Assembly: GCF_033153115.1 (NCBI RefSeq)
Contig: NW_026889778.1
Location: forward strand, 2,728,001 to 2,792,000
DNA: 64,000 bases
Source of the DNA: Saccostrea echinata
Taxonomy: Eukaryota
Direction: 5' to 3'
Below are positions 4,587 through 56,800 of the stretch, one piece after another (within the stretch, counting starts at the first letter, position 1; each line of letters starts with the position of its first letter). The translations under genes and the position numbers were made by a program. The notes beneath the pieces are model-generated. The model worked only from the letters and a program-made list of their open reading frames with translations. It did no database searches and was not told the origin of the DNA.

Positions 4587-6723
4587 ATGAACGAGCTCCG
4601 ATTACGGACTTTACTGCAAGATCGCTATAATACGGAATTCTTTTCCTTAGTTCACAAGATAAGTCGTCCATTTACTGGTAAGTTTCACTTAATTATTTTA
4701 TACTAAGTGATAAGTAGTTTTCATAATTAAGCTGGCATTTCTAGTTCCCCATAGGATAGCTAACCTACAATATCAAGAATTGGCTGTGAATGACATGTTC
4801 TCTTTGAAAATGGTTATACCGCCCATGCTTACTAGGCACATGGTTACATTTTCCCAATTATCATTTTCAATTTATTGACCAATCTTGTTTGTTAAATGCT
4901 ATTTTGTTGATCTGCAATATAACTACCCTCATTTAACATTATTATGTTATATACATATTTATGGTTATTCTTGTTTGCAAAATTTAAAAAAAAAAAAGAT
5001 TTTAATTTTTAATCGTTTTATTTCTACTTCAAATTCAAATGAACCGATTGAGTTTCTGTTGCCGTATGACTAATACTAAGACTTGTGCTGCACTTTCTGA
5101 TTTTTTTTTTTTTCATGGAATGAACTTAGTAATACATTTTGGCAACATGTGCGAACCACGCCGCATTCCAAGCCTGTGAATCTATTTAGCGTATGCATAA
5201 GACAATACACACGAACTGCACGTGCGCTATGAGGATAATAAGCAATTTACACGTGGCTTGTTGAATAAATTTAGTGTGTTTTGTGTTTTCCTCTTAATTT
5301 ATTATGATTCTTGGGTTTAACCGGGGTATTTTCTTCATTACACTTTATATGGTTTAGCAAAGAAAAAAGTGCATTGAATTTGGAGGTAATAAACCCAAGT
5401 TCATACAGTGTCAATACTACAGATCTCGACGAAGAAAAAAAAAACCATCATCATTTTAGCTCAGTCATGTCCTTGGAATCAGAACAACGGATTTAGAATT
5501 TTTGATGGAAGTTACATAATTTTGGGCGTGTAGAAAATTCATTCAAAAGTAAGAATATCATGAAAAGTACCTCATATATAAATAACAATACCTCAATACC
5601 TCTGAACTTAAAAGGACGAATCTGCCCCTAAAACTATTGTACACTGGGAAAATCCCCCCCCCCCCCCGTTTTATTTTCGCCCCTTTCGCCCTACTCACTG
5701 GTAAGCGAATTTAAAAAACACAGTATAACTTCTAAAACAGAATTGTGACTGGGCGAATTTAAAACAGGGCAAAATTATTAGCAAGTATGTTAGCGCGAAA
5801 ACAACACGGGGCGAAAATAACCCTGTATAAGTAGTTCATATGGACACAGTCTTAAAAAAGAATAGAATTAATTGTCTTGTAGTAAGCACTTTTTGGAAAT
5901 CGAAGAAATAAAAGCCAACATTACCTCGTTGCTTTGTCAGGAACACACGCTAGTCCTTACAAGCGGAGAAAAGGTCTTTAAAACTCTTGATTTTATACTG
6001 CGGCTATTTTCAGTTGTACCATAGATATGTTAAAAGTGTGGGTTATCTGTACATAACCAACAGTATTATATGGAATAACTACTACGAACTCCAAGCTATC
6101 CTAGCATCCAATCATTATTCTACGGCTATTTTCAGGGACACCATGCTATTCTAACATCCAATCATTATTCTGCGGCTATTTTCAGGGACATCATGCTATT
6201 CTAAAATCCAATCATTATTCTACGGCTATTTTCAGGAACACCATGCTATTCTAACATCCAATCATTATTCTGCGGCTATTTTCAGGGACACCATGCTATT
6301 CTAACAACCTCGCCTGCCATCCTACTGTTGGAGATATGCGAAGTGCCCTGAAAGTGAAAATACAAAATGCCATTAATTCAGCAGTTCTTGTTGAATCTGA
6401 GGATCGTGGGATATTTGTAGGGGGTCGGAGGAGAAACAGGAAAAAGAAACGAACCAAACATGGTAAACACAAACAAACAAACAAAATAACCAATAATGGT
6501 TCATGGTTACAAAGGAATAATAGTCATTTCGGGCTTTGAACTTGAGCTCATAAAGAAAATTTTCCTCAGTGAGAGTTATCTCTCTTATCAGACGAAGAAT
6601 GACCCTTAACTATAAGATATACTAGTAGTTCGCTTTATCTATTGTTATTCTGTGTTACGTGTATCTAGCTGAAAGTTTAATATTTGAAAATACTTGTATA
6701 TTGTTGTTTTTTCTTCATTTGTT

Positions 6724-6783
<60 letters not shown>

Positions 6784-9700
6784 ATTCATTTAAATATGTA
6801 CCAATTGATAATCTACTTTTCGTACATTCTTTTCAATGTTTAAATGTACCTGTATTTGTGCCTTGATCTATATGGAGAGAACGATCATAGGCATTTATGC
6901 CTGCTGTTCAATCCATTTCATTGATATGAATAAAATATGTTTTAAACTAATTTAATGGTTTTAATACATGTTGATATAATTTTTATCACTTATTTTGCAA
7001 ATTTAATGATATTAGATACATGTATGACATTAATATTATATTATTTTGATTTTTTAATTAGTTAAAACAGAAAAGAAGAAAACAAAGAGGTCAGAGGTCG
7101 GAAAGGGATCCCCCAACCTGACGGATAAGAACAACAGAGGTAACGTCATCGTCATTAGGAAATAATGAGAACGGCCCTAGGGCCGATTATAAGTCGATCT
7201 TAATTGTACATTCATTATTATTTCATATTTAAAATAAGAGATACAAAATAAAAAGTAAGCAAATGAAGTCAAGCATACCTGGCAGAATTTAATAGAAAAC
7301 ATTGTTGATGATGATCTTTTTTTCATAATGAGGCTCCTTCAATGAAAAACAATAACAAATGAGATGTGAGATACCAAATGAGATGTGAGATGACAAATGA
7401 GATGTGAGATGACAAAAGAGATGTGAGATAACAAATGAAATGAGAGATAACGAATGAGATGTGAGATGACAAATGAGATGTGAGATGACAAATGAGATGT
7501 GAGGTGACAAATGAGACGGGAGTTGACAATAAGATGTGATGTATAATTCATTAGAGGTGTCCCGGTTTTCTCTGCCCTTTTTTGTCCAAAATTGCATTTA
7601 GAAACGGATGTTGATATCGATTATAGATACAGAATTTACAAGTATTTTACAAAAGAGTGCAAGGTATCAAGGATGGTGTTCATATAATTTAATATGAATA
7701 GATTCAACAATTCATTATTGTGTGTTCATACATAATGCTTACATACTGAAAATAAATATCATTTTTTCGTTCAGAAATCAACTTTTAAATTTGAATTATA
7801 TTTCACATGATAACACCTAGCCCTGGGTCATTTGATCAGATATAAATGTTATGTAGATACATACATCTAAAACACTGGACCTGGTAATTTGATAATTCGT
7901 CAATAAAATATGTGTAAAAACCGGCGGCCTGGCAACATCTGTATCCGTGTAATGTTTGTGAATTGTACAGGTAATACTGAACAGTCCATGTTGTTATTCA
8001 TTTGTTACTGTACAAGGTAAATACTTATACATTCCCTCTGTATGCGAGGTGTCTTACCTGTACGGGCGGACAAACAACTCAACAATCTCCAATATACACG
8101 TAAGTATCTAAAAAACACCTTAACAATCTCCAAAATACACGTAAGTATCTAAAAAAAAATTACGAATTTGAATTTGTTGCTCATTATTTATCATTTTTAC
8201 ATCGCTTTTACCTTTAGGCCATACCAAGTTTTTTTTCTATGTTTAACGTTCGAGTGCGCTTAATTTGGTTTTTTGACACCCCATGTCATAAAAAACAAAC
8301 AAAATCAGAAGTCATGAAATTGATTATTCAGGTCGAAATCTTTTAATTCTGTTAATTTCTCTAAATATTTGTCTACAATATGTCATATTAGGTATATTGT
8401 AAGCATTTTAATACCTTGATTTTGCTAAAGAATAGATCTTTCTATGAGAAAAATAGATTAATGAAATCAAATCCTTTGAATGACGCCATTTTTATGATTA
8501 TAAAGTCTGTGTTATAATTTTTTGGCTTGTGTGTTTTTTGCGAATAAGTAGGTAGGTTTTTGAAGACGACAAACATCTTTTTCGCGATTAATGGTAGAAG
8601 TACATTATAACGTAATAATTCGCCTTGGAATAAAGTGTCTGTCTTACATACAAGAATTGTCTGTTTTCTGTTGTTAGTTGTCCAACAGAAGTCAGTGGAA
8701 GAAGACACCAAACCTCTGATCGAGTCAGGATTCTGTGACAGTATTATCTCCCTTGAAGACGTGCTTGGCCTTGACCTTGAGGAAGAAGAAGAGGAGGGGA
8801 TCCCGCCTCTTGTGGAGAGTGGAATCAACTTTGGTCCCCTTGTGCAGTATACATATGCAGTTCCAAACATCACAGATTACATAGAACAGATAGAATCTAA
8901 CGATGTAAGTGTCTAGTAACACATCAATTAATAACCAAATTTTTTTTCTTGGAAAGAAAGGAAAAACACACTTCTCCTAAAAATCATTGTATTCTAATAT
9001 TCCCGAGTATATCCATTTGTTTTGATATTTTTTATATCAATTATACACTCAAAACTTTAATGCACAACGTTAAGCTCGGCAAAGATTCAGCTCAACTGGA
9101 AAATTGGACTGATGCCTTCATAAGGCATAAATCCAAATATCCAGACTACATTAACATTAGCGTTACAATAAGTTAATATATACTCTACACACACAGATGC
9201 CGTTCTTTAAAAAGAAACAATCACAGGAAGATGTTGGACAGCTGCAAGAAAAATCAAAAGAACAAGTCAACACTAAGGAAGAATCCGAAGAACAAATTGT
9301 GGAAATCAGAGAAAACAAAGTAGAGCAAATCAAGGAACCGGAAACGGAAGATGTAAACCAAAGCGAGGCTAAAGAGAAACATGACTCATCCCCGCAGGAT
9401 GGGACGGATGGTGGCACTAGTTTTTCAACAGAGGATGGCAAGGCGACGCCAGCGAATGGCGAAGTTAAAAATCCTGAAACAACTCTAGACAAGACAGAAA
9501 CAGAAGAAAAACAGACACTGGTCGAGGATGGCATCACCACAAAATACGAAACCGAGGTTGATGGCGTCGTCATCGAAACAGAGCAAGTAAGTTTATCTAT
9601 TTCCGAACTAAACTTATCCCGTAGATCAATACTGATCGTTAGTTAACTTTTGGACACCCTTTTTACGACCAAAATTGTTATAACACTTTTTTCATGGTAG

Positions 9701-9919
9701 GGTTGATTCTGGATGGAAAAAGTCAAAATAAATATTCTTCATTCACTTAATATGTATCTGATTCTGTCTGCTTTTGTGTTTATTTTTTGTTAACTCTCTT
9801 GATAGAAAACCGTTGCTGCTGTAACAGAACAGCCGAACGGAAAGCAGGTCTCTAAAGAGTCGTCTCCCCTGATTACTAAAGAGGACGATGGGACGTGTCT
9901 GTGCTGTACAATCCTTTAA
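4587..9919 (+). CDS. Acidic, low-complexity protein (~355 aa) with C-terminal CLCCTIL (CaaX prenylation plus palmitoylation) motif
   Basis: Phase-consistent GT-AG exons 4587-4677, 6286-6462, 7071-7139, 8678-8904, 9197-9586 and 9806-9919 total 1068 nt and are open throughout. The last exon reads KTVAAVTEQPNGKQVSKESSPLITKEDDGTCLCCTIL*, with AATAAA at 10461. The last three exons are better supported than the first three. Confidence 0.65.
5637..5829. mobile_element. Degenerate Tc1/mariner-type MITE
   Basis: The left end with ttttattttcgccc is matched by gggcgaaaataaccctgtata at the right end; internal ttcgccc/gggcgaa motifs. Confidence 0.45.
6101..6305 (+). repeat. 50-bp tandem repeat (4 copies) spanning a splice acceptor
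   Basis: Unit ctaacatccaatcattattctgcggctattttcag|ggacaccatgctatt, with AG ends at 6135, 6185, 6235 and 6285. Confidence 0.9.
6727..6780. repeat. (TC)n microsatellite
   Basis: Seen directly. Confidence 0.95.
7352..7545. repeat. ~19-bp minisatellite (gagatgtgagatgacaaat)n
   Basis: About 9 degenerate copies in an intron; they generate the spurious SHLICHLT ORFs. Confidence 0.9.
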
Positions 9920-10645: not shown

Positions 10646-10850
10646 CCTTTCTAAGCCCCATTCTTAACTCCTTACAAAAATATGGACTGCTGTAAAGGAG
10701 AAACTTCAGACGTACTGTGCTACAGCATATTCTGGAAGTGGTGTAAATCAGATATGGATTCTCAAAAACTCAAAAGAACTTTTAGAAAATTTATTTAAAC
10801 GTACGATTTTTCTACAATTTATACAACCATTTCTCACGATTTATGAATTA
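10646..10850 (+). mobile_element. Degenerate Penelope-like retroelement RT fragment (5' part)
   Basis: Translates TKIWTAVKEKLQTYCATAYSGSGVNQIWILKNSKELLENL and then TYDFSTIYTTISHD, which matches the YDFxxLYTxIPH RT motif. Confidence 0.7.
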
Positions 10851-10949
10851 AAAAACAAATAAAAAGCTGTCAATATGACAGCAAACGGGATTTCTTTGTG
10901 TGAACAGAACTGGTATTTTTCGAAGAAAATTATAAAACTGTTATGAATT

Positions 10950-11658: not shown

Positions 11659-11690
<32 letters not shown>

Positions 11691-14896: not shown

Positions 14897-15172
14897 ATGG
14901 AACACAGACACAAGGAAGCCATAAGGAAAAACTGGACATTCCTCCTAGAAAACATTATTGTAGACGAGCTAATGGACTTTCTTATTTCTCATTCAATCTT
15001 GACAGAAAATATGAAGGAGGAGGTTGAAATCCAAAGGACTAGGAGAGAGAAGGCGACCCAGCTTCTATTTATAGTACAGAAGAGGGGGCCCCAAGCCTTC
15101 CAGACATTTGTTGATGGACTTAAAGAGTGTCAGATGGGGTTCATAGCAGAAAGATTGGAACAATCTGTTTGA
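14897..15172 (+). CDS. CARD-only protein (91 aa), RAIDD/caspase-2-like CARD
   Basis: MEHRHKEAIRKNW...ILTENMKEEV...KATQLLFIVQKRGPQAFQTFVDGL has the CARD signature (ILTEN, LL..L..RGP.AF..F...L). An in-frame TAA at 14882 with no AG before the ATG closes the 5' end. There is an acceptor at 14703 for a UTR intron and AATAAA at 15355. Confidence 0.85.
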   Translation: MEHRHKEAIRKNWTFLLENIIVDELMDFLISHSILTENMKEEVEIQRTRREKATQLLFIVQKRGPQAFQTFVDGLKECQMGFIAERLEQSV

Positions 15173-17209: not shown

Positions 17210-17468
17210 TAATCATGATAAATCAATCAAATTGAGAAGGAGTATTCAAGGTATTACAGAAACACTGACCACTTCAATTTTCCACAGTTATGGTCCTTAA
17301 TTCAACTAAAAATTTGTTTGTTTTTTGTCTACACACTGTTTCTGTTATCTCAGATCCATTCTTTTTCAGTCTGATTAAAATCGGATCCCTCGATCCACTC
17401 CCATAACGGATCAAAGGATCTGATTTTAATCAGATTGCTTCTTTTTCACTAAATCATACAATGAAAAA

Positions 17469-18108
17469 TCACAAGTTGAAAATCCTCTCTATCTCCTCCA
17501 CGTTAATGTTCCCTGGGCTGTTTTTTACGGCCTCCAGGAGTTTTTTCACTGTTGCTTGACGTCCCTCCTTCTGTTTCCAAGTGACAAGCATTTTAAAAAT
17601 TTGCGTCTCTGCACTGAAGCCATTGTTCATAATGATATGTTGCATCTTTATGCTGTCGATGCCTAGGTATGCTCCCACTAGCTCGAAACCAGCCCCAATA
17701 TGTTTGCTGACTTCCACAAGTTCTCTCTCTGTTGGAGGCCTGTCTTGAATATTAGCTGTAACATTAGAAAGCAAGAAGGATTTAGGTTAAGATTAGACCT
17801 GTAATATACTATTCTCAAGAAAGCCTTTTGTCACCCAGAAAATTTGTTCATGGATACTTGTTACTAGATTTCATCTTTGTGTATGCTAATAAATGCTGTG
17901 TTTAATTTATTTTATAAAAAATATACTTGTACAATTTATAAATTTTTCTCTGTTTTCTTTATTCTATCATCATACATGTATATCTATGATAATCATGTGA
18001 AAATAACTTGTTTTCTGACTATATCCAATGCAAACATTTCTCTTTTACCAGACTGAAAATTCAGTATTTATGTTTGAAAATTCCAAATAAAAGCTCACCA
18101 CCTGCCAT
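17469..18108 (-). CDS. Death-domain-only protein (98 aa), RAIDD/CRADD-like DD
   Basis: Exons 18108-18099 (ATG GCA GGT G|gtgag) and 17755-17469 (ttacag|CT) give MAGANIQDRPPTERELVEVSKHIG...FELVGAYLGI...ETQIFKMLVTWKQKEGRQATVKKLLEAV..., a typical DD (LG, W.Q+.G+QAT...L). In-frame TGA TGA lies upstream of the ATG, and all three frames of exon 18153-18099 are closed. Confidence 0.8.
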
Positions 18109-23700: not shown

Positions 23701-26700
23701 CACTTTGATAAAGGGGAATAAATCAGATATGATTCACTGTGGTAAAGGGGGATGACTCTGATGTGATGATTGATTGAAGATTCACTGTGATAAGGGGGAT
23801 GATAACTCTGATTGCTGTTTATGTTCACATTGCTCTTTCACAGAGGGGGGAGAGTCATGACATCATGTACCCCGCTTGGACGTTTTGGGAGGGAGGACCA
23901 GCGGTCTGGCCAATCTATCCCACAGGACTGGGGCGCTGGGACCAACAAAGGGAGATAATTTCAAGGTACAAGTAAAAGGAGGTAAAACTTACTCATCTTC
24001 ATGCATGTGTTGTATTTTTTGCTCTTTTGAAATTGCATTAATGCCTCTTGGGGAAAAAAAATTAGATATTTAATCATAGAGGTTCAACACAGACCAAAAT
24101 TGTTGATAAAAATTTCCTAATGAGAAAATATGTATACAAAGTTTAAAGAATTACTTTAAAGATATGAATTATTTGTATGTTTCAAGGTTTTTTTTTATAT
24201 CAGAGCTGCCAAGAGCTGGCCTTGGGAGAAGAAGAAAAATAAGGGATTCTTCCGTGGATCTCGAACCAGTTCAGAGAGAGACCCCCTGATTCTACTGTCT
24301 AGGTCTAACCCAGAACTGGTGGATGCTGAGTACACTAAAAACCAGGCCTGGAGGTCTGAGGCAGTGAGTATTGGGGGGGGGGGGAGGGGAAGGGGGGTGT
24401 TACACTAAAAACCAGGCCTGGAGGTCTGTTTCAGTGAGTATTGGGGGAGGAGTACACTAAAAACTAGGCCTGGAGATCTGAGGCAATGGGTACTAGGGGA
24501 AAGAGTACACTAAAAAGCAGGCCTGAGGCATAGAGGTTTGATGCAGTGAGTGCTGGGGGAAGGAGAGTNNNNNNNNNNNNNNNNNNNNNNNNNNNNNNNN
24601 NNNNNNNNNNNNNNNNNNNNNNNNNNNNNNNNNNNNNNNNNNNNNNNNNNNNNNNNNNNNNNNNNNNNNNNNNNNNNNNNNNNNNNNNNNNNNNNNNNNN
24701 NNNNNNNNNNNNNNNNNNNGTATATATGTTCTGTCAGATGCAAGGTTCAGATGCTGTATCAGACATTTTATATTTTATGTTTGGATGACTTTGGTAAAGG
24801 ACAGTATCACAAGTGCTGTACGAACCTCACCTGCACACCCAGTCATTCTTTGATATTTGCATTGGATGCTTCATCTGACCTAAAGTTCAATTCAGTGACC
24901 TTGAAGAAGATGGGATTGACCTTATTTCCAGCTTTTAACAAGAGAAATACTTAATGATTGGTTGCAGTTATGGATGCTTTTTTCTGTGCAGTATTTAAAT
25001 GAACTATAAAGTTTAACTTAACTTGCTAGGTTATCAGCTCAATTTGAACTCCTCTAGTTAATACTATTTATAAAAGTACAAGTGTACACATAATGTAACC
25101 TTGCCATAATTCTGATTCATTTTCTTTTCATGCAAGTAAAAAAAAAAAAATTGAACCATTTTTCTCTGGAAGGCAACTATGATATTTACTCATCAACTAT
25201 CAATATGGTAAAACGAGTTTGTCTTTATGACAGGACACATTACACAGACCCCCAGCAAAGGATATCAAGTTAGAAGACCACTGTGATTACAAGTAAATCA
25301 GCAAATTTAATTAATAATTTTAACATGTGACAAAGAAGAAGTGTAAACAGCAATTACAGCTAAGAATGTTTTTTAGCTCACCTGGGTTAAAGGATCAGAA
25401 GTGGGTTTTTCTGATCCAAGCGTGTCTGGCATTCCTCTGTCTGTTGTGTGTTATGTATCCTCTGTAAAACTTTCACATTTTCAACATCCTTTTCAGTCTA
25501 ACTTGAGTAGTTTCAACCAAACTTGACACAAAGCATTTTTGGTTAAAGGAGAGTTCAGTAATATGCAAAAGAATGGCCTCACCCTTTTTAAAGGGGAAAT
25601 AATAATGAGAATAAGTCATTTAAGAATCCTCTTCTCAAGACCCACAGGGCCAGGGAGGCAGAGTTAGAGGTAAGATTTGTTATTGAGTATAAATACAGTG
25701 GCGCCTTGTTAATCCGGATGCCTCCGTCCCCAACGTAATCGTCCGGATAAATGAATCGTCCGGATAAGTGAATCATCTCTTAAAAGACCCTTTATAATTA
25801 ACGCCAGTTACATATTTCTTTTCTAAAGTTATGTTCATTAATAGACTGTAATGCAATAAATAGAAAGATATTTTCTTGAATTATATATCCTTATAAATTG
25901 TCTTATGAAAAGAAAAAAAGCATTTCAAATATATGTACGTTTAGAGAAATGGAAAATCGCATTTTGTTAAACTTATACGCAGCTCAAGACCGCAACAAAA
26001 TCTATTGATTTATTTTTTAATTATTTTATTTACAACTCTCCGAAATTCTCATAAATTGTTATACCGTTAGCAATTATATTCTGAAAGTATTTGTATTTAC
26101 AATATAAGCTAAATTCTTTGAGCTCCATAATATAATAGTCGCCCGCGTGGCGCAGTGGTTAGAGCGTCTGCTCTAGAGTCGCGAAGTAAGGAGTTGATCC
26201 TTACGTCGCGGGTTCAAATCCCACTGTGGGACGTGGAGACCGGTCCTTCGGATGAGACCGTATAAACCGAGGTCCCGTGTCGCAGTAGGTGCTGGCACGA
26301 AAAAGATCCCTCACTGCTCAATGGCCGTAAGTGCCGAGTATAGGACAAAATTTGCAGCTCTCCACCGGCAAATGGTGGCGTCTCCATATGAGTGAAAAAT
26401 TCTCGAGAGGGACGTTAAACAACATACAATCAATCAATCCATAATATAATAGACGCATGTTTTATTTGGGGTAAACACACACTAATTATAGACGCTATTG
26501 TTTGGAGGTCACAGGTAACCATCTTCAAACTTACTTCACGGACAATGTTTTTACAACAATTATCACTACTGCAAGATAGGTGTGAAAAAGTCGTTCCTTG
26601 AAAAAGTATCATCCGGATAAACGAGTCATTTTTCAATGAAATATTACGTTTTGTAGTAGAAATTGACCGTCCGAATCCGGAACGCAAATTTCCGGATTAA

Positions 26701-28796
26701 TGAGACAAAATAATGAGGAAAAAATCGGTTCCCAAAAAATATTGTCCGGAAGGTGAAGCGTCCGGGTTATTGGCGTCCGGATTACCGCGGCGCCACTGTA
26801 TTATGTTTGTTCAAATTATGACCCCAAGGCTTCTTGTCAATTATAGGACAAAGATTTAAATAGAAACATCAGAAAAAAATCTTTTAAAATCTTTCTTGAG
26901 AACAGCAGAACCACCGATAGTAAAGAAAATATGCAAACAAGTACATGTAGGTTGTAGTAATATTTTCTCAGGTGAGCAATGTGGTCCATGGGCTTAGGTT
27001 AACTCTTGATCAGGAAGTAACCTGTACCATTCTATATAATACATTAATGTTATTTAATATTTAACTTTCAGGACATTTCTTTCATTATCTATTTAACTTT
27101 TTGGACATTTCTTACAGGTACTTATTTAACTTTCGGGGGGTCGCTGCCAGCTTCCGTTTTAAGCATCTGTTTCTCTGTGATTCTGTAGTCTTCCATGTAG
27201 GGAGTGCCTGGTTAGAATTCTTTTATCCTGCCATGAAACCCTGGGTCCATTATATTCCAGTCAAAGAGGACCTCTCAGATGTTGTGTGAGTATTATAAAA
27301 CTGTTCCCTCAACAAATGTACACTTTGTTAAACTACCTCAACAAATGTACACTTTGTTTAACTAGAGTGGACAATTGTTAGCGTAGTTAATTAATTAATT
27401 ACTATATAGCTAGTTAATTAGTAAGTCATTCTGAGGCTGCTGTATATACTGTTTACTTTAAATAGAGTTTTGATCTCCGCACTAGAGTTTCCTGCACACC
27501 AAAAAGCTGTGGTAGTCTATGATAGTTGTATATACTGTTTACTTTAAATAGAGTTTTGATCTCTGCACTAGAGTTTCCTGCACACCAAAAAGCTGTGGTA
27601 GTCTATGATAGTTTGTTATGGAACTCCATACAGTGTATATATTTCTTGGATTTAAAAATTTAAATTTTGCTATGAAATAATTTGCAAAAATAGGAAGTGT
27701 ACAATAACATGCCTATACTGTAACTGGCGCTCTGAATGTGACCAGGTGTAAGTGTTAGAAGCAGCTCAGATTTAGATACAGAATGTGATTGTCTGGAGAA
27801 GTAGTCTGCTTAGATATATCGTATAAAATTGATATATTGTAGATATTTTTACTTACATTACTGGGTATTTTACAGGGAACTTTTGGAGTTTGCAAAAGAG
27901 AATGATGATGTTGTCCATGAAATAGCCAAAAGGTAAGAAGAAATGTACAAGGCATCTAAATATATAACATTCACTTAATTTTGAAATTCTAGAATATTTT
28001 TATTGAAAAATGACCACTTTAACTCTTTACATACACTTAATGTTCACGTCACAGAAATGTGAAGTTACCTTTTCCCCGTAAGCACTTTATAGCGAGGCAC
28101 AAGTTTCTCTAAAGTTTAGCGTAAATAATTATTTTGTAATATTTTAATAAGATTATAACTTTTCTTATTTTATGAGATTTTAGCAAGTATAAATTAGAAG
28201 GGAATTGGCATTAAATTGAAGATTAAATTTACTTTTGAAAGTGCGTGAAAAATGCGTGATTGCGGGGAAACGGTATATGCGTGATTTTGCGTTAGAAATA
28301 GGAAATGGTTTATGCGTTAAAATGCGTGACTGCGGGGAATATTATTGAATGGCAAGCAAATGATTTCATTTCACTGTACTGTGAATCTGTGGTGGAAGTA
28401 TTGGCCTTTTATCTTACATGTATGTTTACAGTTTGTCCCAAGAGTTTTCATAATTTGTTTTAAACATTTATTGTCGTTACATTATCTCTGCTTGTTTTTC
28501 ATTTATTTTAATTTATTGGAAAAAGTGAAAAATAAAAGGAAAACATTTACAGGAAACTTTTGTCTGTTCCTGATTATATTCGTCACTTTATTGAGTTCTG
28601 TTATTCTATAATAAAATTCATTTAGACGTAAAGCTGCATGCCCTCTATTTTATTTCTTTACAGAGGTCGACAGTTTATTTGGGATCATCTCAGAATGGAA
28701 GACATCTCCTCTTACTGGGAAACTCTACTTAAAAAATATGCCAAACTGTTAAAATTTAAACCTAAACGAAACAAGAGTTACTCACAAATTAAATAA
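20743..28796 (+). CDS. POGLUT1: Protein O-glucosyltransferase 1 (Rumi; GT90/CAP10), ~401 aa
   Basis: Ten phase-consistent exons: 20743-20869, 22254-22353, 22463-22606, 23126-23261, 23844-23965, 24204-24363, 25234-25292, 27118-27285, 27876-27932, 28664-28796. It has a signal peptide and the motifs [61 protein letters not shown] and [20 protein letters not shown]. Confidence 0.95.
21084..21264 (+). mobile_element. Partial TRIM-like element (second family): PPT plus tRNA-like LTR
   Basis: acctttaaggagggaggaa|tgt...ctcagttggtagaaca...ccttaca; the 22-mer is identical to 32301-32322. Confidence 0.5.
22649..22929. mobile_element. Mariner-type MITE containing a nested perfect 33-bp palindrome
   Basis: Ends tgtggaatcat / atgattccacagta; internal IR 22731-22763 versus 22782-22814. 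Confidence 0.65.
23470..23812. repeat. Degenerate ~46-bp intronic minisatellite
   Basis: Recurrent tgataaagggg-ataactctgatgtga units, about 7 copies. Confidence 0.75.
24328..24568 (+). repeat. Tandem copies of the POGLUT1 exon-6 3' end plus donor
   Basis: tacactaaaaaccaggcctggaggtctgaggca|gtgagtattgggg occurs 4 times (first copy is the real exon end at 24363) and runs into the gap. Confidence 0.85.
24569..24719. other. Assembly gap (N run)
   Basis: Run of n. Confidence 1.
25696..26798. mobile_element. Tc1/mariner (pogo/Tigger-like) MITE, TA TSD
   Basis: ta|cagtggcgccttgttaatccggatgcc ... ggcgtccggattaccgcggcgccactg|ta, with subterminal tccggat repeats. Confidence 0.85.
26139..26437 (+). 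mobile_element. tRNA-derived SINE (V-domain-like core), full length with 15-bp TSD
   Basis: A box tggcgcagtgg, B box ggttcaaatcc, core ccttcggatgagaccgtataaaccgaggtcc and a (caat)n tail. TSD tccataatataatag lies at 26124-26138 and 26438-26452. Confidence 0.9.
27444..27614. repeat. 85-bp tandem duplication in intron (plus 30-bp duplication at 27307-27364)
   Basis: atatactgtttactttaaatagagttttgatctc...gtctatgatagtt occurs twice. Confidence 0.85.
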
Positions 28797-29816
28797 TTTA
28801 TGAACATTACTACTAAAGAAATACACCAAACTTTTAAGATTTAAACCAAAATGAAACAAGAGTTTCAAGCAAATCAAATAATTTATGATCATTTCTCTTT
28901 TGATAGTTTTTTTTAAATAGTCTTTTATAATTATTTTTTTTTATACACAATGGTTAGTGGATTTATGTTGTAGTAAATTTTATCTCTGCCATGTACATGT
29001 ATGTTATATCCTTTTGACCTAGGGGCATTTTTAGAGGTGCGTGGCCATAACAAAATAAAATGGATGTAAAATTCTAGGTTTATATTGCCATGAGTGATTT
29101 TGTGGAGGACCACCATAACATTATAAAACAGATATTGAAAAAAAAAACTTTTTTATAGTCGCATTGTACAGTACATGTACATGTAAAAACGAGTAATATT
29201 TTTTCATTTCCCTATATATTCCGTATAAACTTTTCATACTTTTATGAATTATCTTGGCACAATTGTTCCAGAGTTGATGTAATTTTTCTGAATGATTGCG
29301 TTTCAGTACACTATACACCTGCTAGAATAAAATTATTTGAAGTCATGAAAACGTTTCTTACATAAAATATTCAAATGTCACGATACCATGTCAACTTTTG
29401 TTGAGAGTATATTTCAGTATGTTAATAACAAGTTGTAAAAACAGCTGTAATGTATTTTAAATATGCAATATTATGTTTGATGTATTTAAATGGTACAGTT
29501 TTCTTCTGTAATTTTTTCTCTCTATATTTTGTTATATAATACATATATGTAATATAGTGTTGAATCGATTGAATTTGTTAGCTTAGTGTGTTAAAAAAAG
29601 ATCCAGATTTGAAAAAAAGATAAATATATCCTCTTTAATTATTATGCTTAGGCTGTCCTCCAGGAAATCACCCTAGGCTGTTTGAACTCGGTTTTTATAT
29701 CCTGTTTATTATGTTACTGCCACCAAAGGATAATTTAGATTTACATGCCATATACATGTATCAGTCTATCTATCTTCATATGTATTTTATATAGCTAAAT
29801 TTCATTCTGGTGGAAT

Positions 29817-36398: not shown

Positions 36399-36629
36399 TT
36401 AGGTATGAAGTAGAAATCTGGAAAAAATCTTCAACATAAGTTACATATTTCTAAACCAGTGGGTTTTTTTTCATATAAATTAATTAATATTCATCTCCCT
36501 TCAAATTAGGCATGGTTAATGCCTGAACCACTGCCCAGGCTTGACCTTTTATTTAATATAAAAATTACAAATTACATGGTTGTTAGTAAGTAAATATAGA
36601 CTAATAACCTAGGAAAGGTCTTTAGTCAA

Positions 36630-43300: not shown

Positions 43301-46049
43301 CCATGTTCTTGTCAAATATACATGTAATGCTAAAATGAAAATCATTTTGAGATGAATTTTACAGGGTACGTGGACAACATACGGCGACCTAATGATTATG
43401 TGTATCTGGTTCACAGTATAGAGAGATTACGTAACGAACCTTTCCAGACCGGTAAGTTTCTTAGTATAGAGAGATTACGGAACGAACCTTTCCACACCGG
43501 TAAGTTTCTTAGTATAGAGAGATTACGTCACACCTTTACAGAGGGTAAGTTTCTTAGTATACAGAGATTACGTAACGAACCTGTCCAGACCGGTAAGTTT
43601 CTTAGTATAGAAAGATTACGTCACACCTTTACAGACCTGTAAGTTTCTTAGTATAGAAACTTTTACAGACTGATAAGTTTCTTTAAAAAAGTCATGTTGT
43701 AGACTTTGCAATCAAAAATGTTTATACAATATTTACGACAGATATTAAATCATACAACAGTCTATCACCACATATTGATTTGGTAAAAGCAACGTTTAAA
43801 ATTTCCCAGTGTCTTCCAATTAATAAATATTTGTATTACATGTAAATCCTTTTTAATGTAATTACATTCTACGAGTCTGCTTGATTTTCCATTTCCCCAA
43901 ATTTAATGTATTCTGGATTATTATTCAAAATGAAAAAAAATACAGTGGTATTAAAACAGCGATAGAAGCTATACTGTTGATTGTTACCTGCTATTAGTCT
44001 ATACATCGTAATTTAAGAGCACATAGAGAGAGAGAGGTAATTATCTACCAATGCTTTAATTTAGCTACAAAAACACATTTAAGGAAGTAGGAGTATTATT
44101 AGTTTTCATGGTTTGACAAAGAGAATTTCTTCCTGTTAAGTGTCCTATTTTTTAAAGTGCCGAATTTTAAGGCCAGTATATTCATCTCTTTTTTTTAAAA
44201 CAGGAAGATTTTTTTTTTTTTTTTGTAAATTTGTTGAAATTTTATTATTTGTAGCTATGGGGACGGCTGACGTGCAAGCGATCTGTAAAGTTCTAGAGGA
44301 GGAAGAAAGTGCGGAGGCGAATCTACTGGACAAACTGAAGAAACTTATAACAGAAAACCAAGTAGGTCAAGGTCACATGTGTTATATCCATATACATTAA
44401 TATATAATGTAGATAATATGGACTTTTTTGATGTGGTTATGCAATATCAAGGAAATTATGAAGCCCCAACTTTTTCATCCTCACAATGTCAGGGGTCCCA
44501 GAGTCCACTCGTACCCGTGGGACCCCAGACAAACTTTCTTAGATTTTTTTTTGGGGGGGGGGGGATTTCCATGGTTCCAGTGACGTCCTTCGGGGAAATT
44601 ACGAATCTTATATCCCAATATACCACATTACGCCTTTTGGTGACAGATAACCAGTATCAGTACACTGAGGTGCCAGATCTTACTTTCTGTTCACAGTTTG
44701 TGCTAATTTGTGAAAGCTCCAATTTGAGAGAAGTTGCCCCCCCCCCCCAAAAAAAAAAAATCAAATGGAGTTTGTCAGATGCATCCCCACAATGTCAAGG
44801 TTTTGTGATTTCGGAACTCCACACGAACCTTTGACATAAGTAGTTATTTAGAAGTTGAAAGCCACTATTTCATTTGTTCCTGTTCTAGGACTGGAACCAA
44901 TCAGAAAACAGCTTTTATTGTAGGTAAGTTTTGTAAACAAATATGACTCGTCTTTAAAATGGAAAGTGTCAATATTGTAGGATTTGTGACTAGTTACTTT
45001 AAATGAAACACCGGGGATTAATTTTTTGAAGATCGTCCTCCTTACATGTACAATCACAAAAGATATGCTCTGGAGTTGGGCAATTTCATAACGACGGATT
45101 TGAAAAATATATTCTCATTGGTTAGTTTATACATGTAATTACCCATTATGTCATGTGTAACCACAAGCCCATCTTTTAAATACTAGTAACGACTTATGTC
45201 AAGGGTTTGTGTGGAGTTCCGAAATTAAAACCTTGACATTGTTAGGATGGTCAGCTGGGGTCCCAGGACCCACAACCCCGAGTGGACTCAGGACCCCTGA
45301 CGTTTTGAGGATGTAACCTTTTGAACTTGGAGATCATGCTTTCTCCACCGAATAAACTGTGAAATTTACCATTTTTCCAGCACTAAATGGTTGTACCTCC
45401 TCAATAACATCTACTGACCTTTTTTAATTGCTTGTTAAAAAATTTCAGTTCAGTTGTGTCCCTTAAACTGAGATTGCTCCTACAGGCCTGCATGAAAAAT
45501 ATATACTGTTTCATATAATATACAATTATTGACTTCTGATGAGGTCACTCGTGACTATCACTATACGGACCAGGTCAAGTATTGGTTGCCCGAGGCTGAA
45601 GGCAAATCACAGAACTATTTTCTTTTTAGGGTTTATTCTAGAATTTAGCAATGACAATGATATTGTTTCAGAAATGTAATCCAAAACCAAATGTAGGCTG
45701 TCTGTATCCGTACTCAATTTTTTTAACCAACAAATGCACCACGTAAATACATAATTATTGTAATATTTTGATTGGCTGCTTTCATTAGGGGTGAAATGTT
45801 TGCTTTCAGTTAAATGGTGAAGTGAAGACCGGAAGTGGAGGAAAACCCGGAGAGGTTATAATGAAGATAGCGAATGAGGTGAACGCAGACACGATCGTTT
45901 GCGGAAGTAGGGGTCACGGAAAGCTCCGAAGGACGATGCTGGGCGTGGTTAGTGACTACATCGTACACCATTCGGAAGTCCCCGTGACTGTATGTCGTCA
46001 CAAACCACACAATCCCGAGATCAGACGACAGAGTAGTTTGGAAAAATGA
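40378..46049 (+). CDS. Universal stress protein A-like (USP domain), paralogue 1, ~167 aa
   Basis: Exons 40378-40447, 43365-43451, 44255-44361 and 45810-46049 total 504 nt. KVVIAMDGSYHSGYAFQW, VYLVHSI, GKPGEVIMKIA..ADTIVCGSRGHGKLRRTMLGVVSDYIVHHSEVPVTV. Confidence 0.9.
43413..43684 (+). repeat. 45/48-bp tandem copies of the USP1 exon-2 end plus donor
   Basis: agtatagagagattacgtaacgaacctttccagaccg|gtaagtttctt occurs 5 times, plus a degenerate sixth copy. Confidence 0.9.
44476..45313. mobile_element. Long-TIR non-autonomous DNA element with an insertion splitting its left arm
   Basis: 44476-44530 and 44782-44850 are reverse-complemented by 45183-45313 (catcctcacaatgtcaggggtcc..gagtccactcg / cgagtggactcaggacccctgacgttttgaggatg; ttcggaactccacac / gtgtggagttccgaa). 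Confidence 0.7.
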
Positions 46050-49399: not shown

Positions 49400-49450
<51 letters not shown>

Positions 49451-50420: not shown

Positions 50421-50457
<37 letters not shown>

Positions 50458-50727: not shown

Positions 50728-50799
50728 TCCATTATTAATGCATGGTATCTTAATAATTAAATGATCCACTGTTAAAAGGTATGCATGTACTTTATCTAG

Positions 50800-52900
50800 A
50801 ATCTAGTGAATCCCTGGTACATTGTTCAAAATTTAGTGAATCCCTGGTACAGTTTTTCCGGTACCCCTACAATCTAGTAAACCACTGGTACAGTTTTCCC
50901 GGTATCTTTAAATTTTAATAAATCACTCGTACCGTTTTCTCCATAGCTCTGTAATAATAGTAAACCACGAAACAGTACCTCTATATAGTCTACTGAACCA
51001 CTGGTACAGTTTTCACAATATCTAGGGTTTTAACAGTACCTCTGGAGTCTAATGAACCGCTGGTACAGTTTTCACAATATCCTAGGTTTTAACTGGACCT
51101 CTATAGTCTAGTCAACCACTGGCACAGTTTTCACAGTATCCTAGATTTTAACAGTACCTCTAGAATCTACTGAACCACTGGTACAGTTTTCACAATATCC
51201 TTGATCTTAACAGTACCTCTAAGAGTCTACTGAACCACTGACACAGTTTTCACAGTATCCTAGGTTTTAACAGTACCTCTATAGTCTACTGAACAAACTG
51301 GCATAGTTTTTCCAGTACCTTTAAAATTCTAATAAATCACTGGACCAGTTTTTCTCGTAGCTCTCTAATAATAGTAAGCCACGGTTCAGTTTTTTTCGTA
51401 GCTCTGTAATATAATAGTAAACCACGGTTCAGTTTTCTTGTAGCTCTGTAATATAATAGTAAACCACGGTTCAGTTTTCTTGTAGCTCTGTAATATAATA
51501 GTAAACCACGGTTCAGTTTTCTCATAGCTCTGTAATATAATAGTAAACCACGGTTCAGTTTTCTTGTAGCTCTGTAATATAATAGTAAACCACGGTTCAG
51601 TTTTCTCGTAGCTCTGTAATATAATAGTAAACCACGGTTCAGTTTTCTCGTAGCTCTGTAATAATAGTAAACCACGGTTCAGTTTTCTCATAGCTCTGTA
51701 ATATAATAGTAAACCACGGTTCAGTTTTCTTGTAGCTCTGTAATATAATAGTAAACCACGGTTCAGTTTTCTCATAGCTCTGTAATATAATAGTAAATCA
51801 CGGTTCAGTTTTCTCGTAGCTCTGTAATAATAGTAAACCACCGTTCAGTTTTCTTGTAGCTCTGTAATGTAATAGTCAACCACGGTTCAGTTTTCTTGTA
51901 GCTCTGTAATGTAATAGTCAACCACGGTTCAGTTTTTTTGTAGCTCTGTAATGTAATAGTCAACCACGGTTCAGTTTTTTTGTAGCTCTGTAATTATAGT
52001 AAACCACGGTTCAGTTTTCTCGTAGCTCTGTAATAATAGTAAACCACCGTTCAGTTTTTTTCGTAGCTCTGTAATATAATAGTAAACCACGTTTCAGTTT
52101 TCTTGTAGCTCTGTAATGTAATAGTCAACCACGGTTCAGTTTTTTTGTAGCTCTGTAATTATAGTAAACCACGGTTCAGTTTTCTCGTAGCTCTGTAATA
52201 TAATAGTAAACCACGGTTCAGTTTTCTTGTAGCTCTGTAATGTAATAGTCAACCACGGTTCAGTTTTTTTGTAGCTCTGTAATTATAGTAAACCACGGTT
52301 CAGTTTTTTTGTAGCTCTGTAATATAATAGTAAACCACGGTTCAGTTTTCTTGTAGCTCTGTAATGTAATAGTCAACCACGGTTCAGTTTTTTTTTAGCT
52401 CTGTAATTATAGTAAACCACGGTTCAGTTTTCTCGTAGGTCTGTAATAATAGTAAACCACGGTTCAGTTTTCTCGTAGCTGGTAACGTCAACCAGGGTAC
52501 AGTATATCTATATAGTCTACTGAACCACTGGTACAGTTTTTCACAATATCCTAGGTTTTATCAGTACCTCTATAGTCTACTGAACCACTGGTGCAGTTTT
52601 CTCGGTACCTTTAAATTTTAAATGAATCACTGGTACATTTTTGTCGTAGCTCTGTAATAATAGTAAACCACGGTACAGTTTTCTCGGTACCTCTAGAGTC
52701 TAATGATACAGTTTTCTATGTACCACCATAATCTATAGTGATTAATGAACCACTGGTACAGTTTTCAAGAACCTCTACAATCTAGTGAACCACTGGTACA
52801 GTTTTCATGGTATCTTTATAATTAAGTGAACCACTGGTAAAGTTTTATATGGTACCTTGTGAATCTAGTTAACCACTGGTATATTTTCAGGATACGTTTA
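50800..52900. repeat. Compound satellite: 36-39-bp core array (51352-52480) flanked by 60-bp and degenerate ~36-bp arrays
   Basis: Core gtagctctgtaatataatagtaaaccacggttcagttttct at ~29 copies; flanks share aaccactggtacagtttt. Confidence 0.9.
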
Positions 52901-53889
52901 GAATGTATAACCGCTTGTAAACTTTTTTTTGGCTTTATGCAGTCGGAAATTCCATGCTTATACTTAGAAAACTTTCCAGTCTGAAGTTTTTTCTGAAGTC
53001 CGAAGATACTGATTACAAGTGTACATCATCTGATAGACTTACCTGGTGGGAGCGATTTGTGGAAATATTATGTTTCAATCCTAAACTGTAGTGAAATTAT
53101 ATTAGAATTAATGCTCAATATTTTTAAGGCAAATTAACTTAACTTCAAAAGTTGCGACAAAACAATACGTTGTATATGTAGTGAAGATTAAATACTTGTA
53201 TAATCAGGGAGTTTTCTTGCATGGGCATTTCAAACTTTGCCCCACTTTACAATAGGACGATGGAGAGAAAACATCACATGAAACACGAATAATGATCCAT
53301 TGACACGACATATTTGTAAACACTTAAAGATCCCTGTGCATGATATGTTTATACGTGTTCTTGAATTGCTTAATAGGCAAAAAATATGTATCAGATACAT
53401 GTATTTAGTAATTTAAAAAAAACTTACATCAAAATGATTTGAATAAACAATATGACGAGGCGAAGTAATCAATACCAAGGCAAACAATTAGGCAACAAAC
53501 TTTACGTAGTACGGTCAATAACCTATGGCACTAAAATACCAGATGTGAAATTGTTCTCGGAACTCAGGATCAAACAGGAGTCAAACAAATATTCAAGCAG
53601 ATTCTGGGACTGGGCTCGACTGACAAAACGCGTGATACTCAGGTGACCATTCAGGCCCATGGGCCTCTTGTAAGAACAGAAAGCTATTTTTAAAAATAGC
53701 GAAGCATGTGCAATTACATGTAGTTCATCATCGTAAAAAATGCAGTGAAATATAAAATCTAGCCTTGAATGGCAGACCCAGTTAGTGGATGTCCTCCTGT
53801 GACCCCTTTCTACAGTAAACACGAGATAACAAGTCATTGTGTCGCAGAAATTGAAATTTAACATTGAGAAAAAAAAAATTAAATTGATT

Positions 53890-56800
53890 ATGGAGACGAA
53901 GGAGAGACGAGTAATGATTGCTATGGACGGCAGTAAACACTCGGAATATGCTTTTAACTGTAAGTAAAAACGCAACGGATCACTTAGCATTATTTCGACA
54001 ACAGTGTGTTGAAGGTCATATTGCTATTTTTATCTATTTTTAGCCACACGTGTGGACTATCTATTTCTGATGCATGTTTGTCATTCTATTCTGCGTATTA
54101 TGTTCACTTTCTTTTAAATTATTAATTAATCATTAATTTTAGGCATTTGAGACCGATTCTTTTTTCTGTATTATATCTATGTATTTTCACTATTTTGGCT
54201 AACCTGAGACTTTGCCTGTATGCGATGTGTATTAAGCATGTCTGTGTGTCAGGTGTAAATGTTTGACATTTCAAATTTGCCAGAGGCCGAAGTAAGGTCT
54301 CTGATCAAAGTTTATCTTGCATTAAATGTCTGTTTATGTCTGGTGTGGTTTTTTTTTCATATTTCTTTTTCATTCCATGATATATGCTCCCTGAAATCTT
54401 AAAAGTGCATAGATAGGGGAAAAACTTTTAAATTCATGGCAAAATTAATCAAATTAATATGCAAGCATCCCAGTGTATTGTAGAATATACAGTTTGTTAT
54501 AAATGATCATGACCCAATGCAGGTAACGTTTTTAATGGCAATACACAGCTTTCTGCTAGAACATTAAATCTAATTACATGTATTTACCCCGACATCAGGT
54601 CTCAGATTCACTGTGAATTGAAATCGTTAAAACATCATAGTTTTATTTTGATTTGACAAGAAGAGAAAGCATATGGTGTCCCATGGGTCGCTTGTTTCAG
54701 TTTTACATTGTGTTAGAATTAAATATTTTCCAGGGTACCTCACAACCTTCAGAATACCCCAAGATGTTGTCCTTCTTGTTCACTGTATACAAAGACATGA
54801 TCAGTTCCACGCAGGTAAAGATGACGTTTTTTTTGTTCAGTGTACATGTTATACAGAGACATGATCAATTCCAGGCAGGTAAAGATGACGTCTTTCTCAT
54901 TCACGCTAAATGTATAGAGAGACATGATCAATTCCACGCAGGTAACAATTGATTTTACCTGGAGAGGGACTTTCACAAAATAAAGATCTAACAAATTAAA
55001 TGATAGCGAATTCCTTTTGACGGCTTGTTTTTTAGACGATGAAGAGAGTATTCAATAAATAGTAACATTTTGTTTTGGTTTTTTTTTTAAATGACTTAAT
55101 TTTACTCATCATTCAGTATGGATAAAGATTATGAAATAAATAATCAATCAAGTATGGTAATCTCTGAAAACTTTGATTCCAGCTCTGGGTATGTCTGACG
55201 TGAAAACGGTTTGTGATATCCTGGCTCAAGAAGAAAAGGAAGAGGAGAGTCTGAAAAAACACCTGGAGCAAAAACTAACGGAGAATAAGGTATACTCAGA
55301 ATAAGGTATACTCAGAATAAGGTGTACACAGAATAAGGTATACACAGAATAAGGTATATAGAATAAGGTATACACAGAATAAAGTATACACAGAAGGTAT
55401 ACACAAAATAAGGTATACAGAATAAGGACTTATTTAAGCATGCACAGAATAAGGTACACACAGAATAAAGTATAGGGTACACACAGAATAAGGTATACAG
55501 AAAAAGGACTATTAAGGTACACACAGAATAAGGTACTAGTATACTGAGAATAAGGCATGCACAGAATAAGGCACACACAGAATAAGGTATACAGAATAAG
55601 GAATGATTAAGGTACACACAGAATAAGGTATACTGAGAATAAGGCATGCGCAGAATAAGGTACACACAGAATAAGGTATAGGGTATACACAGAATGAGGT
55701 ATACACAGAAAAAGGTACACACAGAATGAGGTATACACAGAATGGGGTACACACAGAATGAGGTATACAAAATAAGGACTATTAAGGTATTCACATAATA
55801 AGGTATATAGAATAAGGTATATAGAATAAGGGCTTGTTAAGGTTTACACAGAATAAAGTATACACAGAATAGGGTATACACAAAATATGGTATACTCAGA
55901 ATAAAGTATACTGAGAATTAGGTATACACAGAATAAGGTATGCAGAGAAAAATGTATACACAGAATAAGGAATACAGAGAATAAGGAATACACAGAATAA
56001 GGTATAGGGTATACACAAAATAAGGTATACAACAAATAAAGTATACACAGAACAAGATATACACAGAAAAAGGTATAGGGTATACACAGAACAAGAATAA
56101 GGTATGCAGAACAAGGTATACACAGAATAACTTTTACACAGAATAAGGTATACACAGAATGAGGTATAGGGTATACACAGAATAAGGTATACACAGAATA
56201 AAGTTAGCAGAGAGTGAAGTATACACAGAATAAGGTATAGGGTATACATAGAATAACGTATACACCTACAGGTAACGTGATACACTCTAATACATAATAG
56301 AAATATCATGTGATAAACAAGATAAACATTAAAACACAATATGATATACATTGATACATTGAAAAAATATACATTGATACATAAGATAAACATCAACACT
56401 CAATCAGTAAACATTGTTTCACAAAAAAATATACATTGATACAGAAGATAAAAACACTGATACAAAAACGGGTAATCACTGACACACAGAAAGCATACAC
56501 TGATACACAGGATAAACATTGAAACAAAACACAGTAAACACTGATACATAAAAAATATATATTGATATAGAAGATAAACATTGATACACAACACAATAAA
56601 CACTGATACACAAAAAATATATACAATGATACACAAGATAGACATCAATATACAACACAATAAACATTGATTCACAAAAAATATACACTGATGCACAGAA
56701 AATAAACATTGATACACAAGAAAGACACTGATTCACAACACACTAAGGGTGAGAACAACAGGGAATATGAAGTTGTTTGGCCCTGTCATTTGACTGTCTA

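What the first reader, a model, noticed from the sequence alone, without database searches (positions are those of the whole stretch)
6101..56260. Window-wide pattern: tandem duplications are repeatedly anchored on exon boundaries
Seen: at least seven arrays include a splice junction or coding terminus as their terminal unit. These are an acceptor x4 (6101-6305), a POGLUT1 donor x4 (24328-24568), the POGLUT1 exon-8 start (27058-27137), the POGLUT1 stop region x2 (28719-28888), a USP1 donor x5 (43413-43684), a USP2 donor x3 (54770-54946) and a USP2 exon-3 donor array (55281-56260); a putative donor x2 at 8081-8157 may be an eighth. In each, the authentic junction is the exon-proximal copy and the other copies extend into the intron or UTR. 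Inference: this suggests a junction-biased mutational process (e.g. transcription/splicing-linked breaks at the GC step) or a selective filter. It would seed intronic satellites and supply alternative splice sites.
Basis: partly seen in the sequence, partly recalled or inferred. Interest (0 to 1): 0.7.

Follow-up and report, generated by a model that had tools for sequence, protein, structure and literature searches.

The report
Oyster splice-junction "mirage" minisatellites
Several genes in this stretch of a likely oyster genome have exon edges, splice signal included, copied head-to-tail into the neighbouring intron; this repeat type is already known from lancelets, chicken and a human gene, it touches only about 1-2% of splice sites sampled elsewhere in the genome, and it is likely harmless duplication debris that survives because splicing uses the exon-nearest copy.

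Summary
All eight arrays exist. Six contain a splice site that RNA-like contigs or the reading frame support, one spans a stop codon, and use of the 8099 donor is not shown. At both duplicated junctions bridged by contigs the exon-nearest copy is used. They are "mirage" minisatellites (amphioxus; human F7; chicken "exon stuttering"); this scan met them before in other genomes and elsewhere in this one. The window is a hot spot: 6 of 50 junctions against 0.8 expected. Elsewhere in the genome: 18.3 of 915 junctions in 42 myosin and dynein genes, 3.9 of 405 in 50 systematic blocks. Enrichment is x2.4-2.6 (CI about 1.0-3.6) over non-repeat intron, x1.3-1.6 (CI spans 1) over all intronic arrays; donors x3.2, acceptors x1.5-2.0. 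Arrays starting just inside introns are not enriched; decoy GT/AG are not purged; 20 of 22 mirages lie in genes rich in ordinary intronic arrays. Best reading: general local duplication, a selective filter and longer survival of exon-anchored copies. A junction-specific mutation process is not needed but not excluded.

The parts
6091..6306 (+). Acceptor mirage, 50-nt unit x4.3 (about 29 nt intron + 21 nt exon); AG copies end at 6135, 6185, 6235, 6285; a diverged fifth AG context at 6013. Gene without Pfam match (exons 4317-4677, 6286-6462, 7062-7139, 8678-8904, 9197-9586, 9806-; 358-aa ORF)
   Evidence: TRF; copies; joint 4677>6286 in X7 and X5; ORF; no Pfam hit for 2 exons tested
8072..8156 (+). 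41-nt unit x2.1 across a putative donor (GT after 8099 and 8140) of an alternative exon starting at 8049; 8049-8099 would be a 51-nt in-frame cassette
   Evidence: TRF; acceptor 8049 joined in X5 only, contig unspliced 8046-8383: donor use not shown
24328..24568 (+).
   Evidence: Pfam PF05686; 358 codons without stop using the first copy
27058..27134 (+). Decayed acceptor mirage, 32-nt unit x2.4; exon starts 27118; upstream copies have lost the matching acceptor context
   Evidence: TRF; no 20-mer copy within 6 mismatches; frame; PF05686
28725..28893 (+). 85-nt unit x2 covering the last 22 codons, stop codon and start of 3' UTR; 70 of 85 identical; not a splice junction
   Evidence: transcribed through in contigs
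43415..43684 (+). Donor mirage of Usp-family gene 1, exon 2: 48/45/48/46-nt units (37 nt exon + 11 nt intron), donors after 43451, 43499, 43544, 43592, 43638, plus a GT-less remnant at 43672; decoys at +48, +93, +141 are in frame and stop-free
   Evidence: joint 43451>44255 in 4 of 4 runs; PF00582 on last exon
54784..54945 (+). Donor mirage of Usp-family gene 2, exon 2: 64/63-nt units, donors after 54814, 54878, 54941
   Evidence: 161-aa ORF using first copy; no RNA laid here
55282..56265 (+). Donor-seeded 16-nt satellite of Usp gene 2, exon 3 (8 nt exon + 8 nt intron), about 60 degenerate copies; donor after 55289
   Evidence: TRF 60.8 copies; 45 copies within 6 of 20 mismatches; ORF
56301..58646 (+). 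Two further intronic arrays (21/64-nt and 66-nt units) that follow the 16-nt array and may descend from it
   Evidence: local alignment 66-mer vs 56301 array 52 (0 of 500 shuffles), vs 16-mer array 38 (3 of 500); weak, composition is shared

Best explanation
These are 'mirage' minisatellites: short local tandem duplications that happen to straddle an exon edge and have grown into arrays, likely made by the same slippage or break-repair process that makes ordinary intronic arrays in duplication-prone genes, and likely kept because splicing uses the exon-nearest copy. Steps: (1, shown) local duplications of 16-90 nt are common in some genes and rare in others, and mirages sit in the former; (2, inferred from known purifying selection; exon interiors are nearly empty of such copies) duplications wholly inside coding exons are removed, so the only exon-containing ones that last are those whose extra copies fall into intron or UTR, which by itself gives the 'authentic copy is exon-proximal' geometry; (3, shown at two junctions, known for human F7) the spliceosome takes the exon-nearest site, so decoys are neutral and keep their GT/AG; (4, inferred, toy model) the first copy is held by selection on the exon, so the pair decays and is deleted more slowly (x1.1-2.0), and junction DNA is GC-richer than intron, where duplication density is higher (x1.1-1.4): together up to about x2.6, close to the x2.4-2.6 measured; (5, shown in one gene pair) arrays then gain and lose copies as VNTRs.
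For: Window 6 of 50 vs 0.8. 42 myosin/dynein genes, spliced profile alignment: donors 12.6 of 463, acceptors 5.7 of 453; repeat-masked x2.4 (CI 1.0-3.3), unmasked x1.3 (0.5-2.2); TRF version 21 of 93 non-dispersed arrays span a junction vs 8.0 expected, x2.6 (1.3-3.6). 50 systematic 20-kb blocks, ab initio exons: 3.9 of 405, masked x2.1 (0-3.8), unmasked x1.0; 3 of 4 event-bearing exons tested have Pfam hits. Exon interior (-150..-61): 4 of 27,993 and 0 of 27,274 positions. No excess of arrays just inside introns. Decoys keep GT 91 of 97, AG 52 of 53; nearest decoy 16 of 18 and 7 of 8 vs 15.3 and 6.8 expected. 20 of 22 mirages in the 21 of 42 genes above median density of purely intronic arrays. 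Intronic rate rises with GC 0.3%>2.2% in the gene set. Retention model x1.09-1.96. Two myosin copies (contigs C5, C36; 51 of 1,499 exon nt differ) share four junction arrays with different copy numbers and have private ones. F7: upstream donor exclusively used (PMC1557585, abstract and discussion read).
Against: Donor enrichment (x3.2-3.5, CI 1.4-4.7) lies above the retention-plus-GC estimate (about x2.6 at most); the retention figure is a toy model with free parameters. In duplication-poor genes the counts are too few to test. Per-gene rank correlation of mirage rate with intronic array density is weak (rho 0.25, P 0.10); GC dependence is weak in the random blocks (0.5>0.9%). Junction arrays hold more copies (median 6.9 vs 2.9, P 0.002; 7.5 vs 3.6, P 0.10 within mirage-bearing genes), not modelled. 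Three neighbouring Usp paralogues carry a mirage at the same exon-2 donor while about nine others do not. The window (6 vs 2.1 expected at x2.6, P 0.02) is still high, though chosen post hoc. Only two protein families and an ab initio sample; events are few (about 21 + 4).
Confidence: 0.62

Rival explanations
1. Duplications arise more often across exon ends, especially donors, through a transcription-, splicing- or chromatin-linked lesion (polymerase pausing, R-loops, nicks at nucleosome edges) repaired as a tandem duplication.
For: Donor excess x3.2-3.5 in three overlapping analyses of the gene set and x3.3 in the random blocks; holds for arrays at 93% identity or more (6.6 vs 1.7); same donor hit in three neighbouring paralogues, each decoy matching its own exon 26-28 of 30 vs 12-17 of 30 to the paralogues.
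Against: No excess of arrays starting 0-60 nt inside the intron; unit ends scattered 4-70 nt into the exon; CIs include the retention estimate; donor:acceptor 22:11 is not significant (P 0.08); only about 1-2% of junctions.
Confidence: 0.2
2. There is no true junction bias: the window is a duplication-rich stretch picked after the fact, and genome-wide mirages occur at the rate of tandem arrays in general.
For: Against all intronic tandem arrays the ratio is x1.3 (0.5-2.2), x1.6 (0.6-2.7) and x1.0 (0-2.0); 72 of 93 non-dispersed arrays do not span a junction.
Against: That background includes arrays carried in by dispersed repeats, which are not local births; with them masked in numerator and denominator the CI stays at or above 1; window 6 vs 0.8.
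Confidence: 0.11
3. The arrays are kept because they are useful, supplying alternative donors or acceptors or tuning expression.
For: Decoys keep GT/AG; three Usp1 decoys are in frame and stop-free, and would add 16, 31 or 47 residues.
Against: Only exon-nearest joints listed; my hand count of unit lengths gives 8 of 25 donor and 1 of 12 acceptor units as multiples of three (no in-frame excess); copy number differs freely and some arrays are private between the C5 and C36 gene copies.
Confidence: 0.05
4. The arrays are assembly artefacts.
For: One contig (X1) skips 6122>6273, exactly three units; no raw long reads were available.
Against: Copies differ from one another (69-93% matches); X1 also holds an 80-nt contig within the array and the skip may be an array-less allele or a graph collapse; independent contigs C5 and C36 share four such arrays; the assembly has multi-megabase contigs.
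Confidence: 0.02

Closest known systems
Amphioxus 'mirages' (Adh3, globins BflGb6/BflGb9, troponin C, PGBD5). Seen: 5 passages of PMC3087553, 4 passages of PMC3902484; the original Adh3 paper PMC117041 was not held
   Same: Minisatellite-like tandem copies spanning an exon-intron boundary, at donors and acceptors, units of tens of bases (Adh3 10-72 bp), many keeping splice signals, normal splicing, copy number differing between haplotypes
   Different: Here in a mollusc; measured against a background (about 1-2% of junctions, x2.4-2.6 over non-repeat intron), which the passages read do not give; somatic instability not tested
Human F7 intron 7 37-bp VNTR (PMC1557585; abstract and Discussion read)
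   Same: First unit contains the exon-intron junction; only the most upstream donor is used
   Different: F7 pseudo-sites were shown by mutagenesis to be functional; not tested here; F7 covers donors only
Chicken 'exon stuttering' (bioRxiv 10.1101/2025.09.16.676548; 12 of 21 passages read; supplements closed)
   Same: Local expansions copying exon edges into adjacent introns, 1-44 copies, as part of a general regional repeat instability (190 of 5,572 dot-chromosome introns, 3.4%), with length variation
   Different: There tied to GC-rich dot chromosomes; here in a 33% GC genome, patchy by gene, with no trend with distance to contig ends (rho -0.05, 61 loci)
Internal tandem repeats at exon-intron boundaries of human duplicated genes (PMC2812944; 8 passages read)
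   Same: Variable tandem repeats at exon-intron boundaries
   Different: There many are spliced alternatively or create introns; no decoy use seen here

Membership tests
Mirage minisatellites | Head-to-tail tandem copies whose unit holds both exon and intron sequence | tested here: met
   Six splice-site arrays plus one putative; the stop-codon duplication is an exon/UTR analogue, not a member in the strict sense
Mirage minisatellites | Terminal unit is the authentic junction; other copies lie in the intron | tested here: met
   Contig joints at 43451 (4 of 4 runs) and 6286 (2 of 2 bridging runs); reading frame for four more
Mirage minisatellites | Many but not all copies keep AG/GT | tested here: met
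   91 of 97 and 52 of 53 decoys; GT lost at 24485 and 43672
Mirage minisatellites | No interference with regular splicing | tested here: inconclusive
   Only exon-nearest joints listed, but contigs drop rare variants and only 2 of 7 duplicated sites were bridged
Mirage minisatellites | Copy-number variation between haplotypes | tested here: inconclusive
   Met for a myosin gene pair elsewhere in the genome (34-mer 1,990 vs 1,184 nt; 49-mer 10.9 vs 3.9 copies; allele or recent paralogue not resolved); for the window only the X1 skip of three units; no second copy of the GT90 locus surfaced (40 of 7,274 candidates scored)
Mirage minisatellites | Somatic length instability | not testable with these tools
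   Needs single-molecule data from one animal
Chicken exon stuttering | Confined to GC-rich, highly recombining chromosome class | tested here: not met
   Window GC 0.29-0.44; mirages found on at least nine contigs; no contig-end trend; recombination not testable
Transposon-borne satellite | Unit dispersed at other loci | tested here: not met
   The six window events persist with dispersed repeats masked (mask from a 1.6-Mb sample only); decoys match their own exon

The most novel reading that the evidence does not exclude
Tandem duplications are born preferentially across exon ends, above all splice donors, by a transcription- or splicing-coupled lesion, and exon-anchored arrays then renew themselves from the conserved exon copy for very long times (as the same exon-2 donor mirage in three deeply diverged neighbouring Usp paralogues could suggest), making exons the seed bank of intronic satellites and of future intron gain in molluscs.
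Probability: 0.18. Interest if true: 0.7.

Novelty: new member of a known kind. Interest (0 to 1): 0.3.

Why it matters
As it stands it is a dense example of a little-studied repeat class, with a first background-matched rate in this genome (about 1-2% of junctions, about 10% in duplication-prone genes). It shows that up to a dozen intact upstream acceptor copies are tolerated as well as downstream donors, a natural test set for exon-definition and splice-site choice, a known trap for gene prediction (my gene finder ran into decoys), and a source of intron-length markers. If the donor excess proved mutational, it would tie splicing or transcription to where duplications arise, and bear on intron gain by tandem duplication.

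Tried and rejected
No run was on record as RNA; X1, X3, X7 are guessed RNA and X5, guessed DNA, shows spliced joints, so all were read as contigs only. No haplotig of the GT90 locus found. First gene finder too insensitive, replaced (exact exon sensitivity 0.75-0.92 at score 4 in cross-family tests, 7-9 of 16 window exons). Forcing exon-proximal sites did not add events in the random blocks. A hot/cold split of genes (20 vs 1 events) was circular, since far ends of mirages fed the background; redone with purely intronic arrays. Subtelomeric enrichment: not found. The 48-nt array at 23505 as an old mirage of the exon at 23844: rejected (88 of 500 shuffles as good). Synonymous-looking differences in the stop-codon copy: by my count, 7 of 13 coding differences are at third positions, as expected when one copy is neutral. 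Usp exon-2 donor as a family-wide hot spot: not supported (those junctions are unfiltered alignments from a two-sequence profile). In-frame bias of units: none. Neighbouring 30 kb each side: 1 event in about 30 predicted junctions and one more likely donor array missed by the predictor, too few to map the hot zone. One myosin copy (C36) was dropped from all counts as a near-duplicate of C5. Literature searches with oyster, bivalve or invertebrate terms found no mollusc mirage paper (one search also empty); subscription journals and bioRxiv supplements were not searchable.
Full report
Observation. The label 'oyster' rests on earlier scan notes for this genome and on recalled repeat types; I did not test it.

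Which copy is used. Contigs of four runs join 43451>44255 in 4 of 4 runs (one run's row is shifted by a nearby variant) and 4677>6286 in the 2 of 4 runs that hold the upstream exon: the exon-nearest copy both times. Exons 2-10 of the GT90 gene give 358 codons without a stop with donor 24363 and acceptor 27118; Usp gene 2 gives 161 aa with donors 54814 and 55289. The exon at 8049 is joined in one run, whose contig runs on through the 8099 site, so this eighth case stays putative. The 28725 duplication spans a stop codon. Contigs show presence only; rare decoy use is not excluded, and 20 weaker joints were hidden.

Chance within the window. Detector: the 20-mer at a position has a copy at 17 of 20 or better, 10-400 nt toward the intron, none toward the exon, and the match extends over 0.6 period. 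It fires at 6 of 50 junction sides against 0.8 expected from intronic positions 61 nt or more from exons. A TRF placement test gives 6 of 15 arrays against 1.4. Both are post hoc.

Genome-wide test, set 1. I fetched 24 myosin and 19 dynein regions of G000, built profiles from database proteins and wrote a spliced profile aligner (685 introns, 412 confident on both sides). One near-duplicate gene was dropped, leaving 42. Mirages: 12.6 of 463 donors and 5.7 of 453 acceptors (fractions come from averaging over 7 positions). Against all intronic tandem arrays: x1.8 (gene-bootstrap CI 0.7-2.9), x0.8 and x1.3 together (0.5-2.2). With dispersed repeats masked on both sides of the ratio: x3.2 (1.4-4.7), x1.5 (0.3-3.0), x2.4 (1.0-3.3). 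TRF version: 13 donor and 8 acceptor arrays of 93 against 4.0 and 4.0, x2.6 (1.3-3.6); unmasked x1.6 (0.6-2.7). The mask comes from a 1.6-Mb sample and is incomplete.

Set 2. Fifty 20-kb blocks taken every 10.5 Mb along 23 contigs, exons predicted ab initio. 3.1 of 201 donors and 0.7 of 204 acceptors; masked x3.4 (0-6.0) and x0.8; unmasked x1.0 together (same). Three of four event-bearing exons tested have Pfam hits. This set is a lower bound, as the predictor misses exons.

So 'window-wide' is right but the window, at about 12%, is some six to ten times the sampled average. Mirages go with general instability: 20 of 22 lie in the 21 genes above the median density of purely intronic arrays (465 junctions), 2 in the other 21 (472 junctions); the rank correlation is weak (0.25, P 0.10). 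The window's intronic rate is 1.5-1.7% against 0.9% and 0.6% in the two samples. No trend with distance to contig ends.

Mechanism. The excess is limited to units that include exon: 14 vs 4.0 and 7 vs 4.0, whereas arrays beginning or ending within 60 nt inside the intron are at expectation. That argues against breaks focused at the boundary and for a property of the exon copy. Two such properties were sized: a copy held by selection decays and is deleted more slowly (toy model x1.09-1.96), and intronic duplication density rises with GC (predicting 1.27% at donor GC against 0.93% pooled in set 1; 0.64 against 0.59% in set 2). Together they reach about x2.6 at most, enough for the combined figure and inside the CI of the donor figure, but below its point estimate; a donor-linked birth bias stays open. 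Decoys are not disabled: GT kept in 91 of 97, AG in 52 of 53 (copies are not independent), nearest decoys at neutral expectation. This agrees with exclusive use of the upstream donor in human F7; for acceptors exon definition is the likely rule (inference). Two myosin gene copies share four junction arrays at different lengths and carry private ones, so the arrays behave as VNTRs and are not assembly noise.

Loose ends. A third Usp gene just right of the window also has an exon-2 donor mirage; in all three the decoy matches its own exon (26-28 of 30) and not the paralogues (12-17 of 30), and about nine other Usp exon-2 donors lack one. Independent births in a hot region or ancient concerted renewal cannot be told apart here. 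Junction arrays are longer in copies than intronic ones.

Comparison. The class is published as 'mirages' in amphioxus, as the F7 VNTR, and as 'exon stuttering' in chicken (lead from scan note e1-9855471). My searches found no mollusc report, within an open-access library. The scan has 22 earlier findings with these words in at least 8 genomes and single cases in this genome.

Verdict. Real, known kind, locally dense; modest junction enrichment mostly explicable by filter and retention. Interest 0.3.

Noticed in passing
L259:1783-2210 (G000:C29:2,793,783-2,794,210): Third Usp paralogue next to the window with its own exon-2 donor mirage of about six copies (77-87 nt units).
   Followed up: partly
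window 8049-8383: Alternative exon used in run X5 only, read through as a terminal exon; X5 lacks the downstream exons, while X1 and X3 lack the upstream exon 4317-4677 and seem to start near 5874: the gene appears to have tissue-specific starts and ends.
   Followed up: partly
window 43415-43684: Three decoy donors are in frame and stop-free; leaky use would add 16, 31 or 47 residues to the Usp protein.
   Followed up: partly
window 50828-52926: A 2.1-kb complex of related 41/42/59-nt arrays about 1 kb upstream of the second Usp gene; may flank an untranslated exon; no RNA laid there.
   Followed up: no
window 63145-63314: Perfect 85-nt duplication (100%) just upstream of a minus-strand EF-hand-like gene (62904-61380; family recalled); very young or an assembly repeat.
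   Followed up: no
window 6949-7048 and 27307-27364: Two-copy duplications that end or start within about 13-22 nt of a junction without including it.
   Followed up: partly
L112-L113 (G000:C9:8,090,690-8,091,430): A 67-nt unit holding a whole acceptor-short exon-donor pattern repeated about 11 times in a myosin gene: candidate micro-exon array.
   Followed up: no
L114-L115 vs L116 (contigs C5 and C36): Two copies of one myosin gene, 3.4% apart in exons, with introns differing up to tenfold in length through arrays and insertions; the assembly seems to hold several such haplotig-like pairs.
   Followed up: partly
L260:5701-6131 (G000:C29 about 2,807,700-2,808,130): 58-nt array x7 on the minus strand with a donor-like site in each unit next to a predicted exon; likely another mirage missed by the predictor.
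   Followed up: no
L021 (G000:C29:14.66 Mb): A further Usp gene with a 23-nt array across its exon-3 donor.
   Followed up: no
window 496-2682, 14900-15172, 17430-17755, 33500-36420: Other genes seen: a leucine-rich-repeat receptor-like ORF, a small CARD-like ORF, a death-domain-like exon and a proline-rich WASH1-like gene (names recalled, not tested; the last has contig-supported joints); none carries a mirage.
   Followed up: no
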